The position numbers were made by a program. Source: Spirochaetia bacterium (lineage in GTDB: Bacteria > Spirochaetota > Spirochaetia > WTKD01 > G963693115). From it: a stretch of 64,000 bases of DNA. The number at the start of each line of letters is the position of its first letter. Positions within the stretch are counted from its first letter, which is position 1. Below are positions 1-6,000 of this stretch, piece by piece. Where the stretch lies: NCBI GenBank assembly GCA_965226065.1, contig OZ245332.1, positions 999,651 to 1,063,650 on the forward strand, read 5' to 3'.

Positions 1-3000
1 CGCAAAGCACCTTCTAAAGATGAAATTATGCTTAGAACAGTCGTTTGTGAAGGTCTTACTCCAAGTTTTGTAAGCATGTCCATAATTGCAAGTAAACTGC
101 CTGCCGTGGCGTTCATAGGATCAGCAAAAATGAGATGTTTTCCATTGAGTTCTGAAATATCACAGTAACTTTCTTGAGGGTTTATAATGTAGCGCATCGT
201 TTCTTTTGTCTCGGTTTCATCACGCCGTACTTTAAACAAGGCAAAAGGTGTCAGATAATGTTTTGACGAAAATTCTTCAATTTCTTTACTCACAATAACA
301 GATGGGAGCAGCGCTCCACGCAAAAGCACACACATGACGGTATTATCTACCACATCATCTACGTCGGGGATACGATGGACTGCATAAGCGTCAGCGGGTC
401 TTTCAACGGGCGTTTTTACTACAATATGGGTACGTTTTTTTTGTGTACTGGTAAAAGCAAGTGAAAACAAAAGTTCAAATGCTCGCTGCGTATAATATAA
501 AAATTCAGACTGCTTCGTGCTGGAGTTGCGCAACTTCGCTACTATACGCGATACTTCGCCGTGGTTAGCATTTGGGTAATTAAACGAATACACAGATAAT
601 CGAGGCGTGCGTTGCACAATATCTTTCAACTCATTCCCAATGTCTTCGTATAAGTGTATAATTTTTTGAGAAAACTCTGCAGATTCGCATGTTTTACGCT
701 GCGCACAAAGATTCATAATGTGTTCATAGCGCTTTGCTACAGCTTGAATAAGTGCTGTATCGTTTTCAGAAAGCGTGTTGACAATATCAGAAGCAGTGAA
801 AATATGCACAAAAATTACATGCGTTCTTGTATGAAATTTTTCAGCTTTCGCAAATCGCTTGCAAAACGCCGTATACCATCGGCAAGCAGAAAAGACCCCG
901 CTGCATCTTCATTATGAGATAATCGAAATGTACTTTCATCCATACGCTCTACAAAGTTTTCTTCATAGTCCTCCGCAGATTTTTCTGACAAATGTGGTAC
1001 TATATCTGCAGTATCTTCTTGCAACTCACTAAGTAAACTCGGCGATATCGTAAGATAATCGCAGCCTGCAAGTGCCTTAATTTGTTCGGTATTACGAAAA
1101 CTTGCACCCATGACTATGGTCTTATAACCAAACTTTTTATAGTAGTGATAAATATGCTTTACCGATAAAACTCCAGGATCTTCTGAAATAGCAAAAGAAT
1201 CTTTACTTTGATTTTTTTTGTGCCAGTCGCTTATGCGTCCCACAAAGGGAGATATGAGCGTAACATGGGCAAGTGCGCAGGCAATAGCTTGTGCCGTGCT
1301 AAAAAGCAAAGTTAAATTACAATGAATGCCTTCGCACTCTAACTCTTGAGCTGCTTGTATGCCTTCCCACGTAGATGCTATCTTTATGAGAATGCGCTCG
1401 CTTGATATTCCTTCAGCTTTATACAAGGCTATGATACGACGTGCTTTTTCGATTGTCTTTTCCTTGTCAAAGGAAAGATGCGCATCAACCTCCGTCGATA
1501 CACGACCCGGTACTATTTGTAAAATCCTACACCCAAAAGCAACTGCTAAAATATCAATAGTCGCATCTACATCGCCTTTTCCACGCGCTATTGCATCGTC
1601 TATTACCGAATAATACTCACTGCTTTGCACAGCTTGAAATAGCAACGATGGATTAGTTGTTGCATCTTGTGGTGCAAATGTTTTTATATCTTCAAATTTA
1701 CCTGTATCGGCGACAACGGTAGTGTGTTTTTTTAATTGACTAAGAGCACTCATAGCTTGTTCTCCTTATTGGTGTTTTATTTTCATGCGCATACTATTTT
1801 TATAACGCTAACTTTTTGTCTTTGTTTGTGGCGATGGTTTTGAAGCTTGCGCGCTGTATTGTTTAAGTTTGCGTTCTTCGGGAGAAAAAAGTTTCTCTGA
1901 TGACTTTTGCGTTTTCTCTCCTCGCGCTTCTCGATATTTTGTAATTTTTTGTTTCATGAGATTAATCAATTTGGTTATTTTTATTCCGCGCGGACATACG
2001 ATGGTACAATTAAACATACTCTCACAAGCCCATACCCCGTTTTTGCTATCCAAAACATCTATACGCTTCTTCAAGCCTGTATCGCGAGAATCGTCAATAA
2101 AACGAGCTGCTTGCACAAGTGCCATAGGACCAATAAAGTCGGAGTTCTTTTGCAAAATTGGACAGGCAGAATAGCAAGAGGCACAATCTATACAGGTAGA
2201 AGCCTCGTCAAGCAATTTGCGTTCCTCAGGCGTTTGCAAAAATTCGCCTATATCAGGCAGGTCGTCTTTTGGTACAAAATAGGGTTTTACAGATTTGTAT
2301 TTATCAAAAAATGGCTTTTGTTCAACAACGAGGTCTTTTTTTATTTCTAAATTCTGTAACGGATCTATTTCTACCGTAAAATTGTTGCTTTCTACGCTCA
2401 CATCTTTAAATAAGGTTTTACATGCAAGTCGTTCTTTTCCATTTATCCGCATAGCATCTGAACCACATACACCATGTACACAACTACGCCGAAAAGAAAG
2501 TGTAGTATCTTCAGTGCGAGCAAGCATTTCAAGCGTATCAATAACGCGCGTAGTATCCTCAACTTCTACCGTATACTGAGAATAATATGTTTTTATCAAT
2601 GCCTTAGGATCAAAGCGTTTGATTTTTATCGTGGTTTTCACAAAATCTTCTCCTTAAAAATAATCTCGCCTTATTATTTTTATTTAGTACACGCGAGGTT
2701 TAGGCTCCCAAATACTTGTATCAACATCATCATATTCTATAGTCACTCTATTTGTTTCTTTACTGGTATTCAAATGAGCCATGGTGTGCTTCAAGAAGTT
2801 ATCATCATCGCGCTCAGGATAGTCTTCTCGTGCATGTCCACCGCGACTTTCTTTTCGCATTCTTGCACCTTCAACAACTATTTCTGCAAGATCTATCATG
2901 CATCCCACTTCAAAAATACGTAAAGAATCGTAATTGTAGTCGGTGCTGCTATTGTGAACTACTACCTCAGCATAAGTGCTGCGAATATTCTCAAGCTCCT

Positions 3001-6000
3001 TTGCACATTCTGCAAGCCCTGTTTCATGCCGAAATACACCGACTTTTTCGGACATGAGCATTTGCATGCAATTATACACATCACCTATGCATGGTGCTTT
3101 TGAATTTTTTGAATTTTTCTTACGAGACATAATAGCGTGCCATACGGCATAGGAATCATCTATTTCTGATGTCGGCATTTCGTATTTAACAGCACTTTTA
3201 AGATAATGTGCCACATGCATACCTGCACGCCTACCAAAAACCAAAAGTTCTAAAAGGCTATTTGAACCTAGCCTATTTGCCCCATGAACCGAAACGCAAG
3301 CGCATTCTCCTGCTGCATACAATCCTTCATAGTGCTGCTTTGAATATTCAACTTGTCCATCGTGGTTTGTAGGTATACCACCCATGGTGTAATGCGATGT
3401 GGGATGTATCGGGATTGGAGATTCTATGGGGTCTATACCTACATAGGTTTGACAAAATTCACGTACATCGGGAAGCTTATTATTTATAAGATCAGCACCT
3501 AAATGTGTAGCATCAAGATGCACGTAGTCATCTATTTGCTTGTTACCGATTATTCCGCGTCCTGCAAGTAATTCCATAGTAATAGAGCGAGCGACCATAT
3601 CACGCGGTGCGAGATCTTTAAGCTTAGGCGAATATTTCTCCATAAACGGATCACCATTTCTATTGCGTAGTATTCCACCTTCGCCACGCGTGCCTTCTGT
3701 TATAAGCACACCTATGTCTTTTATACCCGTAGGATGAAATTGATAAAATTCAAAGTCTTCAACAGGTATACCCGCACGTGCACAAAGCGCAGCACCATCA
3801 CCCGTATTCGCAAGTGCATTAGAAGTTATTTTAAACAAGCGACCTGCACCACCTGTTGCAAAAAGTATTGCTTGTGCTTGGAATATATGAAGAGATCCAT
3901 CTTCTATACATATCGCAGCGACGCCGACTACCGCGTTTCCATTCATTAACAGCTTTATAACATGATACTCATCAAAGAACGTAATATCATTTTTTATACA
4001 TTGCTGATACAGTGTATGCAATATTAAATGTCCAACTCTATCCGCTGCATAACATGTTCGCATGATGGGACCTTCACCAAAGTGATGCGTGTGTCCACCA
4101 AAACGACGTTGTGCTATTTTTCCATGTTCAGTGCGAGAAAATGGCAAACCTTTATGCTCAAGGTCATATATAACCTGTGGCGCATCTTCTGCCAAAATAA
4201 CTGCCGCTTTTTGATCAACTAAATAATCGCCGCCCTTCACCGTATCATACGCATGCCATTGAGGATTATCATCGCCCATGTTGCCAAGTGACGCAGCTAC
4301 CCCTCCTTGCGCAGCACCGGTATGACTTCGCATAGGATATAACTTACTTACAACAGCAACTTTTGTTTTCGATTCACCAATCTGTAATGCAGCATACAAC
4401 CCTGATCCGCCACCACCTACTATAATGACATCAAACGTATGATAAGTTATAGAACACATAATTTCATATTATATCACACACATTTGTAGCATAAATTCAA
4501 CTAAAAACACGTAAGAAACACTATATGCATACAGAATAATTTCTCAAAAACAAAAAAGGAAACCGCAAAATGCGATTTCCTTTTTTATCGTTTATATCAC
4601 AACGTAAGCACTAGAATGCTATCTTAACTCCTGCAGAGATGTACCCAAATTCAGCCTTAGATTCAGCACCATCAGCTCCGGTTCCTGTTTCTTTTGCTCT
4701 GAAAAAGTTTTCAGTTTTGTGATACCCATCAGCAGCAATACTGCTTTTCTTCGTGCGAAGCAAGTCTCCACTTTCCCACATGATTTCAAATGTAGTATTA
4801 GGAACTATTTTTACAATATCTACGCCAAATCGCACACGAAGATCAAAAGGGTTTACTTCGTTTCTTTCATAGGTTTTTTTAACACCTTTCGAGTCTGTAA
4901 TGTAGTCTTTGTTTTGTCCTGTAATATTAAACGCCTTAAACAAAGCACCTGCTTTTAATTTAAGAAAAAGTATGGTGTACGACCCTTCATATCCAAGTCC
5001 CACATCAGCAGTTGGCCTAATGTCATATTCAAGATCATCTACTTTTTTCTTCGCTCCAAGTGCATAGTTAAAGTTTAATATTAACCCATGATTAAGACCC
5101 GGTACCAATCCAATAATACCTTCATCTTCAGAATCCCAAAACGTAAGTTTTGCACCGATATACTGAATGTCTATTTTTCGTACTGCTTCGTAGGGAGAAC
5201 TTCCATACAGAATACCAAATCCTAAGCCATCAAGAACTTTTTCATCGCCTTTGAAAAGATCCATAACATCCGTTTTCTTTGGGCTTACAAAGTATCGAGT
5301 TGAATCTTGAAAACCAAGTACTAGGCCTGCACCAACTTCATACGAAGCCGTAAAAATATCCTTATCGCTTTTTTTACTCGGCACTACCGGTAATGATGCT
5401 TCGCCATATGGTGCTTTATTTTCCATTGCAACATCAAAACCAACACTCGGTTTTATAAATAAGCTATCCCCGATGTTTATCTTATAGCCAACAAGCGCAC
5501 CGAGAGAGAGAGGATTACCTTCTCCTAAGAATTTTATTTCTTCGTTTTCAACTTTTGAAAAAATATAGGAGTTCTTCACTTTTAAGGTAAGATTATCTAC
5601 CGCAAGAACACTAGCATATATTGAAAGTGCGAATGGATTAAAGGCACGTTTCGTTCTATGAACTGCAGCTAAGCTTTCTCTAAAACTATACTTCGTAGAA
5701 AAACCAACCGCAACATCTATAATCTTATCCATTTTGAAACCAACTTTGAAAGCTGCAAGTTGCTTATTCATTCCTTCATTGTTAATATCGCTATGCGTGT
5801 AGTCCAATGTTCTCTTTGAAAGAGTATTAGAACCGTCATCAGAAGTTTTAAGATCTTTTTCTTTCGCAAATAATTTAGAAGTCTGATATTTCGCAGTACT
5901 AAGAGGCGTTACTACATCTTCTCTAATAGTCACAAAATCCATGTCAGAGAGACCAGATACATAATCAATCTTTTCATGTTCTTTTGTCTTTAATTCAATG

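What a model noticed while it worked through the whole genome (the two positions that open the first line are those of the whole stretch)
1808..4459. Anchor-less SdhAB and NqrA-less Nqr in an order without quinone prenyltransferase or oxidase
Across order WTKD01 sdhAB is kept without an sdhC/D anchor and the Na+-Nqr operon (738080-742675) begins at nqrB, while no UbiA-family quinone prenyltransferase and no heme-copper oxidase is found. Two normally quinone-linked modules are thus conserved without an own quinone pathway, which implies a non-quinone acceptor or host quinone.
Evidence so far: SdhB 8 of 9 genomes; no anchor-like gene beside sdhAB in 6 relatives, three of which continue into sucCD/sucA-like genes; Sdh_cyt 0 of 9 over cut-off. 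NqrB 9 of 9, followed by C, D with no A upstream in the 5 loci read; nqrA model 0 of 9 over cut-off. UbiA 0 of 9 (controls 14 of 14), COX1 0 of 9, cytochrome bd 1 of 9. A degenerate RnfC-like gene, g00569, lies elsewhere.
(Added by a program. Inside this text positions count along the whole contig: contig position 999,651 is position 1 of the stretch shown here. "Call 12" and the like, gene names such as g00115 and contig names such as C1 are that model's own, and its searches are not shown. The text may have been shortened before it was handed on; [...] marks where a part breaks off. The agent that wrote the report below was given it as the finding of a first reader that could run no searches.)

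Follow-up and report, generated by a model that had tools for sequence, protein, structure and literature searches.

The report
Rubredoxin-linked, quinone-free spirochaete respiratory chain
These spirochaetes keep a sodium-pump-type NADH dehydrogenase and a succinate dehydrogenase that both lack their quinone-binding parts, and the small iron protein rubredoxin likely stands in for the quinone, which would give a simple oxygen-using energy chain with no quinone or heme.

Summary
In detail: sdhAB (8 of 9 genomes) has no anchor gene, nqrBCDEF (9 of 9) has no nqrA, UbiA is missing in 9 of 9. But it is not peculiar to this order and does not point to host quinone. NqrA-less nqrBCDEF is published (Pseudothermotoga, Clostridium ultunense; acceptor unknown), and its NqrF is in 123 of 201 Spirochaetia. 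The SdhB belongs to an anchor-less clade reaching Desulfobacterota, mostly in genomes with UbiA. Both proteins have lost quinone-site residues and carry basic patches. g00569 is a remnant spirochaetal RnfC, not NqrA. New lead: an acidic rubredoxin gene lies 1.1 kb from nqrF here and within 10 kb in 45 of 115 Spirochaetia, and a flavodiiron protein is in 9 of 9 order genomes. Best model (0.4, inferred): NADH -> Nqr (Na+ out) -> rubredoxin -> flavodiiron O2 reductase, with SdhAB using the same carrier. Against: linkage may be inherited gene order (2 of 26 in metagenome loci), an FNR-like protein could feed rubredoxin, and no electron transfer was measured. SdhAB cannot be Nqr's general acceptor: 91 of 123 NqrF genomes lack it.

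The parts
2684..4459 (-). sdhA, flavoprotein; covalent-FAD His and catalytic H242/T254/E255/R286/H354/R399 (E. coli numbering) kept; Gln at position 50; no signal peptide
1808..2641 (-). sdhB of the anchor-less clade; three Fe-S motifs; W163, W164, H207 replaced; basic C-terminal helix; the only CxxCxxCxxxCP protein found in the genome. The other parts of the proposed chain lie outside the window, at contig positions: nqrF-E-D-C-B 738080-742693 (-), rubredoxin 736820-736978 (+), flavodiiron protein 1186614-1187876 (-), truncated RnfC-like g00569 637060-638238 (-), FNR-like protein 1649243-1649962 (-).
   Evidence: outside parts:
60344..62509 (-). VTT/DedA-fused MerA/Lpd-like disulfide reductase; best (weak) match to NorW in the genome, a rival reductant of rubredoxin

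Best explanation
NqrBCDEF and SdhAB here lack their quinone-binding parts, and rubredoxin likely serves as the mobile one-electron carrier in place of quinone: NADH would enter at NqrF, pass through NqrD/E, NqrC and NqrB with Na+ export, and go from the NqrB riboflavin to rubredoxin and on to the flavodiiron protein, which would reduce O2 to water. SdhAB would be a soluble cytoplasmic dimer exchanging electrons with the same rubredoxin pool: succinate oxidation in genomes with sucABCD (family f2), more likely fumarate reduction or oxidation of imported succinate in G000, which lacks sucA, sucCD and isocitrate lyase but has PEPCK, MDH, fumarase and aspartase. Shown: gene content, residue losses, charge patterns, gene linkage. 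Inferred: every electron-transfer step, Na+ pumping, direction of SdhAB. The Nqr-rubredoxin step is better supported (about 0.5) than the SdhAB-rubredoxin step (about 0.35).
For: (1) Quinone site gone in NqrB: model match starts at position 113; G141->I, N156->S, F159->V; Gly at that position in 0 of 39 genome-derived A-less NqrB rows; riboflavin residues T162, G198, N200, D346 kept (PMC10643135 passages). (2) The loop at that face is basic: mean +3.6 in 36 unique A-less loops versus +1.5 in 8 A-bearing NqrB and +2.2 in 10 RnfD; the SdhB C-terminal helix is +5.7 in 24 clade members versus +2.3 in 56 anchored ones; the 8 rubredoxins are -12 to -14. (3) Rubredoxin in 8 of 9 order genomes, beside nqr-aroC in 5 f1 genomes; flavodiiron protein in 9 of 9. 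(4) Class sample: rubredoxin in 120 of 123 NqrF genomes versus 47 of 78 others, in 35 of 36 genomes with clade SdhB, and within 10 kb of nqrF in 45 of 115 genomes with listed positions (18 families; about 0.7 expected by chance). In 5 of 20 loci read it comes with desulfoferrodoxin, in 2 of them also rubrerythrin. (5) Outside the phylum: a Phycisphaerales nqrBCDEF follows Fur-family regulator, rubrerythrin, Ni-SOD, peroxiredoxin, desulfoferrodoxin and ferritin genes on one strand; C. ultunense nqr is CUESP_0375-0379 and rubrerythrin CUESP_0386 (PMC5924567 passages). (6) No other NADH sink found in G000: no AdhE, NDH-2, PFO, Mqo hit, the LdhA hit looks like SerA, no ferredoxin motif protein; O2-linked content: SOD, class I RNR without NrdD, PDH. 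(7) Prokaryotic rubredoxins span -100 to +50 mV (PMC10130062 passage), between NADH and O2 and near fumarate/succinate (+33 mV, recalled). (8) Anecdotal: one clade SdhB fused to two rubredoxin-like domains (P0001), one followed by a two-rubredoxin-domain gene (L073), one full TCA operon with rubredoxin 2.1 kb past fumC (L319).
Against: Gene linkage may be inherited order: aroC, unrelated in function, is also near nqr in 6 of the same 20 loci, and one locus holds both arrangements (L260), so one ancestral adjacency could explain most cases; kin are not independent. In 26 metagenome nqr loci with 7 kb or more downstream, rubredoxin was present in only 2. Rubredoxin is common anyway (167 of 201) and is not beside nqr in family f2. 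An FNR-like protein is conserved in 5 of 5 genomes and, with transhydrogenase, could feed rubredoxin without Nqr. No rubredoxin gene was found in the loci around the 24 clade sdhAB. The Phycisphaerales cluster has no rubredoxin gene. P0001 is a single record and a clear chimera (P0004) came from the same search. An unnamed 150-aa protein follows nqrF in 23 of those 26 loci and could be the usual partner, though it was not found in 5 of 5 order genomes. G002 has cytochrome bd without UbiA.
Confidence: 0.4

Rival explanations
1. The modules are unlinked: rubredoxin and the flavodiiron protein are an O2-detox pair fed by the FNR-like (or MerA/Lpd-like) reductase; Nqr passes electrons to something else (O2 or free flavin at the exposed riboflavin, the flavodiiron protein directly, or a partner held by the truncated RnfC-like protein); SdhAB is a soluble fumarate reductase/succinate oxidase using flavin or O2.
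For: FNR-like gene in 5 of 5; weak NorW match in the window; rubredoxin beside nqr in only 2 of 26 metagenome loci; truncated RnfC-like gene kept in 6 of 6 f1 genomes although its rnfD/E/A neighbours are gone.
Against: Leaves the basic patches on both enzymes and the oxidative-stress neighbourhood of nqr in three phyla unexplained; the flavodiiron protein is itself acidic (-14) so a direct route remains possible but has no linkage support.
Confidence: 0.27
2. SdhB docks directly on NqrB where RnfC/NqrA would sit, making a quinone-free Na+-pumping NADH:fumarate reductase.
For: SdhB's C-terminal domain weakly matches the RnfC model's Fe-S end (E 7e-4 in G007); 32 of 36 class genomes with clade SdhB have NqrF; 11 of 13 spirochaete clade genomes have short NqrB plus NqrF; G000 has the PEPCK-MDH-fumarase branch.
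Against: 91 of 123 NqrF genomes lack this SdhB, as does G005; 0 of 9 Desulfobacterota with clade SdhB have this NqrF; sdhAB was never beside nqr in the loci read; both candidate surfaces are basic.
Confidence: 0.12
3. The bacteria import quinone from host or neighbours and both enzymes use it, with g00569 as NqrA stand-in.
For: Small genomes without UbiA; cytochrome bd in G002; RnfC-like gene in 9 of 9; NqrA descends from RnfC (PMC4014512, part read).
Against: Quinone-site residues lost in both enzymes; same altered forms in genomes with UbiA; G002's cydAB lies in a block of genes mostly without G000 orthologues and with higher GC than its flank; g00569 matches no NqrA model.
Confidence: 0.08
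4. A divergent membrane anchor for SdhAB is encoded elsewhere and was missed.
For: 131 small membrane ORFs of G000 were listed by hydropathy and read by eye only, not scanned against Pfam; genomes are 85-96% complete.
Against: Three anchor families and four E. coli anchors give nothing; anchor adjacency 0 of 12 clade loci versus 42 of 43 others; loss of the Trp motif in 23 of 24 clade members versus 1 of 56 others.
Confidence: 0.07

Closest known systems
NqrBCDEF of Pseudothermotoga thermarum/lettingae and Clostridium ultunense (PMC4148951, PMC5924567; passages read)
   Same: Five-gene order B-C-D-E-F, no nqrA, acceptor stated as unknown.
   Different: Those organisms also have a full Rnf, ferredoxins and hydrogenases; G000 has none of these found, which narrows the acceptor. 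Orthology was not tested by a tree.
Na+-NQR of Vibrio cholerae (PMC10643135; section 10 and passages read)
   Same: NqrB-F homologues; FMN and riboflavin residues kept.
   Different: No NqrA, no N-terminal amphipathic helices of NqrB, G141 replaced, no quinone synthesis.
NADH:rubredoxin oxidoreductase - rubredoxin - ROO chain of Desulfovibrio gigas (PMC11638306, passage read)
   Same: Rubredoxin and a flavodiiron protein with intact diiron ligands.
   Different: There the reductase is soluble and conserves no energy (recalled); here the proposed reductase is a membrane ion pump and no classical soluble reductase was identified.
SNFR supercomplex of Prevotella bryantii (PMC8516057; abstract and outline read)
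   Same: Nqr and an Sdh/Frd module in one organism, possible NADH-to-fumarate flow with Na+ export.
   Different: SNFR uses menaquinone and heme b; neither a quinone prenyltransferase nor an anchor is found here.
Actinobacterial/Chloroflexota Sdh2-type complex II (6lum chain B closest solved structure)
   Same: Closest anchored relatives in the tree; same Fe-S motifs and catalytic residues.
   Different: The anchor-less clade sits on a long branch (1.21, SH-aLRT 100), without sdhC/D and without the Trp motif.
SdhAB-1/SdhAB-2 clusters of Syntrophobacter fumaroxidans (PMC5947623, passages read)
   Same: SdhAB gene clusters named without a C subunit in a Desulfobacterota genome; function unresolved.
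   Different: Not tested whether they belong to this clade.
Non-canonical Rnf of Treponema pallidum, tp0153-tp0148 (PMC4436053, passages read)
   Same: Degenerate rnfC-rnfD-rnfE-like operon, as in family f2 here.
   Different: In family f1 only a truncated rnfC remains; orthology to TP0152 rests on gene order and was not tested by sequence.

Membership tests
Na+-NQR (NqrA-F) | NqrA subunit | tested here: not met
   No A-like gene upstream of nqrB in 9 of 9; g00569 matches RnfC models only.
Na+-NQR (NqrA-F) | Quinone pocket in NqrB (N-terminal helices, G141, F159) | tested here: not met
   PMC10643135 section 10
Na+-NQR (NqrA-F) | NqrF FAD/2Fe-2S input, NqrC and NqrB FMN-Thr motifs, riboflavin residues, ApbE | tested here: met
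Na+-NQR (NqrA-F) | Redox-driven Na+ export | not testable with these tools
   Needs vesicle assay; the ATPase K subunit has a Na+-type motif (motif meaning recalled).
NqrBCDEF (A-less) type | Gene order B-C-D-E-F without A | tested here: met
NqrBCDEF (A-less) type | Orthology to Tlet_0865-0869 / CUESP_0375-0379 | not tested
   Those sequences were not fetched.
Rnf | RnfB and an Fe-S/FMN-bearing RnfC with RnfD, G, E, A | tested here: not met
   No RsxB hit, one RnfD-like gene only, RnfC-like gene without Fe-S motifs in G000.
Complex II (SQR/QFR with integral anchor) | SdhC/D or single cytochrome b anchor | tested here: not met
Complex II (SQR/QFR with integral anchor) | Covalent-FAD His, dicarboxylate-site residues, three Fe-S motifs | tested here: met
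Complex II (SQR/QFR with integral anchor) | Quinone-contact Trp of SdhB (E. coli W164; role recalled) | tested here: not met
Type E / CCG-anchored Sdh, Mfr, Tfr | CCG-domain subunit; third cluster with extra Cys | tested here: not met
   CCG 0 of 5; third motif is the 3Fe-4S type.
SNFR supercomplex | Menaquinone and heme-b QFR | tested here: not met
   (gene level only)
Rubredoxin - flavodiiron O2/NO reductase chain | Rubredoxin and flavodiiron protein with diiron ligands | tested here: met
   (ligand positions recalled, mapped from NorV)
Rubredoxin - flavodiiron O2/NO reductase chain | Soluble NADH:rubredoxin oxidoreductase | tested here: inconclusive
   No classical one among the Pyr_redox_2 hits examined; FNR-like and MerA/Lpd-like candidates exist.
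Rubredoxin - flavodiiron O2/NO reductase chain | O2 (rather than NO) as substrate | not testable with these tools
   Needs enzyme assay.

The most novel reading that the evidence does not exclude
A heme-free, quinone-free respiratory chain in which rubredoxin is the shared mobile carrier: a Na+-pumping NADH:rubredoxin oxidoreductase (A-less Nqr), a soluble succinate:rubredoxin oxidoreductase (anchor-less SdhAB clade) and a flavodiiron terminal oxidase, widespread in Spirochaetia and turning an anaerobe's oxygen-defence pathway into energy conservation and a closed TCA cycle.
Probability: 0.3. Interest if true: 0.9.

Novelty: new variant of a known kind. Interest (0 to 1): 0.7.

Why it matters
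The acceptor of NqrBCDEF has been called unknown in print since 2014 (PMC4148951; again PMC5924567). This small genome strips the options down and points to a specific, cheap-to-test carrier. If rubredoxin replaces quinone, oxygen detoxification in many 'anaerobes' would be coupled to Na+ pumping, a flavodiiron protein would act as a respiratory terminal oxidase, and an oxidative TCA cycle could run without quinone or heme. Even if that fails, the anchor-less SdhAB clade (Spirochaetota, Desulfobacterota and others) is a distinct complex II variant whose partner is unknown; I found no paper describing it or an Nqr-rubredoxin link in searches (open-access library only, supplements not read).

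Tried and rejected
Complex prediction of NqrB (residues 1-322) with rubredoxin: no verdict, score 0.16 against a mark of 0.32, controls not folded; not evidence either way. NqrB-SdhB and SdhB-rubredoxin were not predicted (one job only). Sequencing runs: no RNA holder listed; no evidence on expression. Promoter/terminator scan around sdhAB: 14 found versus 12.7 expected, uninformative. Earlier findings of the scan: three look-ups, nothing returned. Literature search for the order name: 0 papers. g00569 as NqrA: rejected on models and synteny, though a structural role on NqrB stays open. The 624-aa upstream gene as anchor: rejected, no helical membrane segments beyond a signal peptide and beside sdhA in only 3 of 8 loci. 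The E. coli MaeB hit in G000 appears to be phosphotransacetylase, not malic enzyme. The 150-aa nqr-associated protein: no Pfam, NCBIfam or named Atlas family. Fusion search for longer SdhB forms: 23 hits, mostly SdhA-SdhB or CCG fusions, one with rubredoxin-like domains, at least one evident chimera. The loop-charge figure included loci selected by a Lys-rich pattern, so it was recomputed without them. The careful tree did not finish; the quick IQ-TREE result is used and L096 was dropped for lack of a full match.
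Full report
1. Observation. The window holds sdhA (2684-4459, minus strand) and sdhB (1808-2641) between a 624-aa exported protein and transaldolase. SdhB is in 8 of 9 genomes of the order. In the 8 loci read there is no same-strand small membrane gene beside sdhAB, and the three family-f2 genomes run on into sucC, sucD, sucA, sucB. Anchor families give nothing over cut-off: Sdh_cyt 0 of 9, TIGR02046 0 of 5, CCG 0 of 5; E. coli SdhC/D and FrdC/D have no hit in G000. nqrB-C-D-E-F lies at contig 738080-742693 and nqrB is in 9 of 9 genomes with no A-like gene upstream. 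UbiA 0 of 9, COX1 0 of the 5 tested, cytochrome bd 1 of 9. The one dihydroorotate dehydrogenase of G000 is 306 aa, the length of the soluble class (class assignment from recall).

2. Neither module is peculiar to this order. NqrBCDEF without NqrA is described for Pseudothermotoga thermarum and P. lettingae, with the acceptor called unknown (PMC4148951, passages), and for Clostridium ultunense (PMC5924567, passages). In an even sample of 201 Spirochaetia genomes, 123 have this NqrF at E<=1e-70; of 20 such loci read, 19 were nqrBCDEF without A and one was a lone nqrF. For SdhB, the 80 best of 584 relatives from a partial scan (3 of 64 parts) of named genomes split in two: 24 (13 Spirochaetota, 9 Desulfobacterota or delta, 1 Phycisphaerales, 1 Aminicenantes) group with the order's 8 sequences on one long branch (1.21, SH-aLRT 100, quick tree, L096 dropped). 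Among loci where the sdhA start was found with 1 kb upstream, a His-bearing membrane gene precedes sdhA in 0 of 12 clade loci and 42 of 43 others. UbiA-family genes are in 20 of those 24 genomes, so anchor loss is not tied to quinone loss and host quinone is not needed to explain it.

3. Both enzymes have lost the quinone site. NqrB starts at model position 113, so the N-terminal helices that close on ubiquinone are absent; G141 is Ile, N156 Ser, F159 Val, while T162, G198, N200 and D346 of the riboflavin site are kept (numbering counted from the alignment; PMC10643135 section 10 and passages). Gly at 141 occurs in 0 of 39 genome-derived A-less NqrB rows; it is also absent in 5 of 8 A-bearing NqrB loops from these genomes and 10 of 10 RnfD, so it marks departure from the Vibrio pocket and is not unique to A-less forms. 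The adjoining loop is basic (+3.6). SdhB has Gln, Lys and Glu at E. coli W163, W164 and H207; the Trp motif is in 1 of 24 clade members and 55 of 56 others, and the helix after the last cysteine averages +5.7 versus +2.3. SdhA keeps the covalent-FAD His, the catalytic set and Gln50 (the same motif in 23 of 28 loci, 5 unmatched); that Gln marks the succinate-oxidising type is recalled.

4. g00569. The RnfC-like gene is in 9 of 9 genomes. In family f2 it has two 4Fe-4S motifs and sits in a degenerate rnfC-D-E-A operon near DUF212, like the non-canonical Treponema pallidum operon (PMC4436053, passages). In the six f1 genomes the Fe-S domain and the membrane genes are gone but the gene stays beside DUF212. 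It matches RnfC models only. It is not NqrA; a scaffold role on NqrB cannot be excluded.

5. What can take the electrons. SdhAB cannot be the general acceptor: clade SdhB is in 36 of 201 class genomes (my cut: E<=1e-95 to the alignment, plus two genomes with the match in two pieces), 32 of them with NqrF, but 91 of 123 NqrF genomes lack it, as does G005; none of the 9 Desulfobacterota with clade SdhB has this NqrF, and the NqrB/RnfD hits read there have an Fe-S-bearing NqrA- or RnfC-like gene upstream in most cases. A six-frame motif scan of G000 found one ferredoxin-type motif (SdhB) and a 52-aa rubredoxin at contig 736820-736978, 1.1 kb from the end of nqrF past aroC. Rubredoxin is in 8 of 9 order genomes (G002's nqr contig ends before that place), net charge -12 to -14. 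A flavodiiron protein (contig 1186614-1187876) with all seven NorV ligand positions is in 9 of 9 (G002's copy has an internal stop). No stand-alone flavodoxin was found in the 5 genomes tested. In the class, rubredoxin is in 120 of 123 NqrF genomes and 47 of 78 others, and within 10 kb of nqrF in 45 of 115 genomes with listed positions, about 0.7 expected (54 matches were not listed and many assemblies are fragmented, so this is a floor; kin are not independent). In 8 of 20 loci read it is within the 14-kb window, 5 times after desulfoferrodoxin. A Phycisphaerales nqrBCDEF follows an oxidative-stress gene run on one strand, without rubredoxin. Against: aroC is near nqr in 6 of the same 20 loci, only 2 of 26 long metagenome nqr loci have rubredoxin, and f2 has it elsewhere.

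6. Metabolic context of G000 (tblastn with E. coli or relative proteins, E<=1e-2 or 1e-3; single-sequence searches can miss distant forms). Present: PDH, citrate synthase, aconitase, IDH, MDH, fumarase, aspartase, PEPCK, Pta-AckA, SOD, class I RNR, ApbE, transhydrogenase, V/A-type ATPase (PDH, aconitase, Pta, transhydrogenase and ATPase named by reading the sequences). Not found: SucA, SucCD, AceA/B, PFO, PFL-like, AdhE, NDH-2, Mqo, GlpB/C, NrdD, KatG, AhpC, rubrerythrin, desulfoferrodoxin. NADH from glycolysis and PDH therefore has few exits besides Nqr. No classical NADH:rubredoxin reductase was identified among the Pyr_redox_2 hits examined, but an FNR-like protein is in 5 of 5 genomes and a VTT-fused MerA/Lpd-like reductase in the window is the best NorW match.

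7. Mechanism. Most likely (0.4): NADH -> NqrF -> NqrD/E -> NqrC -> NqrB riboflavin -> rubredoxin -> flavodiiron protein -> O2, with Na+ export at Nqr feeding the ATPase; SdhAB trades electrons with the same rubredoxin through its basic helix. Rubredoxins lie at -100 to +50 mV (PMC10130062, passage), which leaves about 0.25-0.35 V from NADH, enough for one Na+ per electron (own estimate), and is close to fumarate/succinate, so SdhAB could run either way: oxidatively where sucABCD complete the cycle (12 of 13 spirochaete clade loci have suc genes next to sdhAB; one full TCA operon in L319), reductively or on imported succinate in G000. The chain's lower half works like the D. gigas NADH -> rubredoxin -> ROO chain (PMC11638306, passage). 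All electron-transfer steps are inferred. Rivals: unlinked modules with FNR feeding rubredoxin (0.27), direct Nqr-SdhB docking (0.12), imported quinone (0.08), missed anchor (0.07).

8. Membership and novelty. Works like Na+-NQR and complex II, but fails the defining NqrA, quinone-pocket and anchor tests, so it is filed as neither canonical family; it fits the published A-less NqrBCDEF type by gene order. It is not SNFR (PMC8516057, abstract) nor a CCG-anchored type E enzyme. SdhAB clusters named without a C subunit are mentioned for Syntrophobacter fumaroxidans (PMC5947623, passages); whether they belong to this clade was not tested. The paper on Nqr origins (PMC4014512, part 2 of 8 and passages) and bioRxiv 10.1101/328856 (passages) did not describe the A-less type in what I read. 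Searches returned no paper on an Nqr-rubredoxin or Sdh-rubredoxin link; the library is open-access only and no supplements were read. Verdict: real; new variant of known kinds; interest 0.7, because it makes a stated open question directly testable with a named carrier.

Noticed in passing
L175:7668-8126(+) and homologues after nqrF in L172-L191, L236-L315, L318: An unnamed ~150-aa protein directly follows nqrF in most A-less nqr operons (23 of 26 long metagenome loci; once apparently inside the operon, L315); no Pfam/NCBIfam family; not found in 5 of 5 order genomes. Candidate sixth subunit or maturation factor.
   Followed up: partly
G000 contig 740511-741605 (L001:10514-11605, minus): NqrC has a tandemly duplicated FMN-binding domain (period 164 aa; 131 of 162 aa and 421 of 486 nt identical), both copies with the FMN-Thr motif; relatives have one.
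   Followed up: partly
L318:4096-12583: Phycisphaerales genome: Fur-family regulator, rubrerythrin, Ni-SOD, peroxiredoxin, desulfoferrodoxin, ferritin, ferritin-like gene, then nqrBCDEF and the 150-aa gene, all on one strand.
   Followed up: yes
L317:5977-17998 (G002): cydAB lies in a block of genes mostly without G000 orthologues and with GC mostly 0.35-0.40 against about 0.29-0.33 in the flank: gene transfer or chimeric contig.
   Followed up: partly
G000 contig 826688-827632, 1234101-1235120, 1644519-1649241; FNR-like gene 1649243-1649962: Several radical-SAM-motif genes but no ferredoxin or stand-alone flavodoxin found; the FNR-like gene lies directly before a MiaB-like gene on the same strand. 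Their low-potential donor is unexplained.
   Followed up: no
L143-L149, L153: Desulfobacterales and some others have an NqrA-like subunit that keeps two 4Fe-4S motifs (not L149), upstream of a long NqrB: a possible RnfC-to-NqrA intermediate.
   Followed up: partly
window 60344-62509 (-): 721-aa fusion of a VTT/DedA membrane domain with a MerA/Lpd-like disulfide reductase; similar-length hits in G003 and G005.
   Followed up: partly
window 4611-6485 (-): 624-aa exported protein with a weak outer-membrane beta-barrel hit, possibly a major sheath protein; next to sdhA in G000, G001, G002.
   Followed up: no
L210, L211 (G003) and L212 (G005): Carotenoid desaturase-family genes in G003 (scanned) and a look-alike in G005.
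   Followed up: no
G000 contig 1828163-1829874: Two tandem MDH-like genes, the upstream one shorter and degenerate; a similar pair is in the TCA operon of L319.
   Followed up: no
G127:C71 and G189:C7: Clade SdhB matched in two pieces within one open frame of about 305 aa, suggesting an internal insertion.
   Followed up: no
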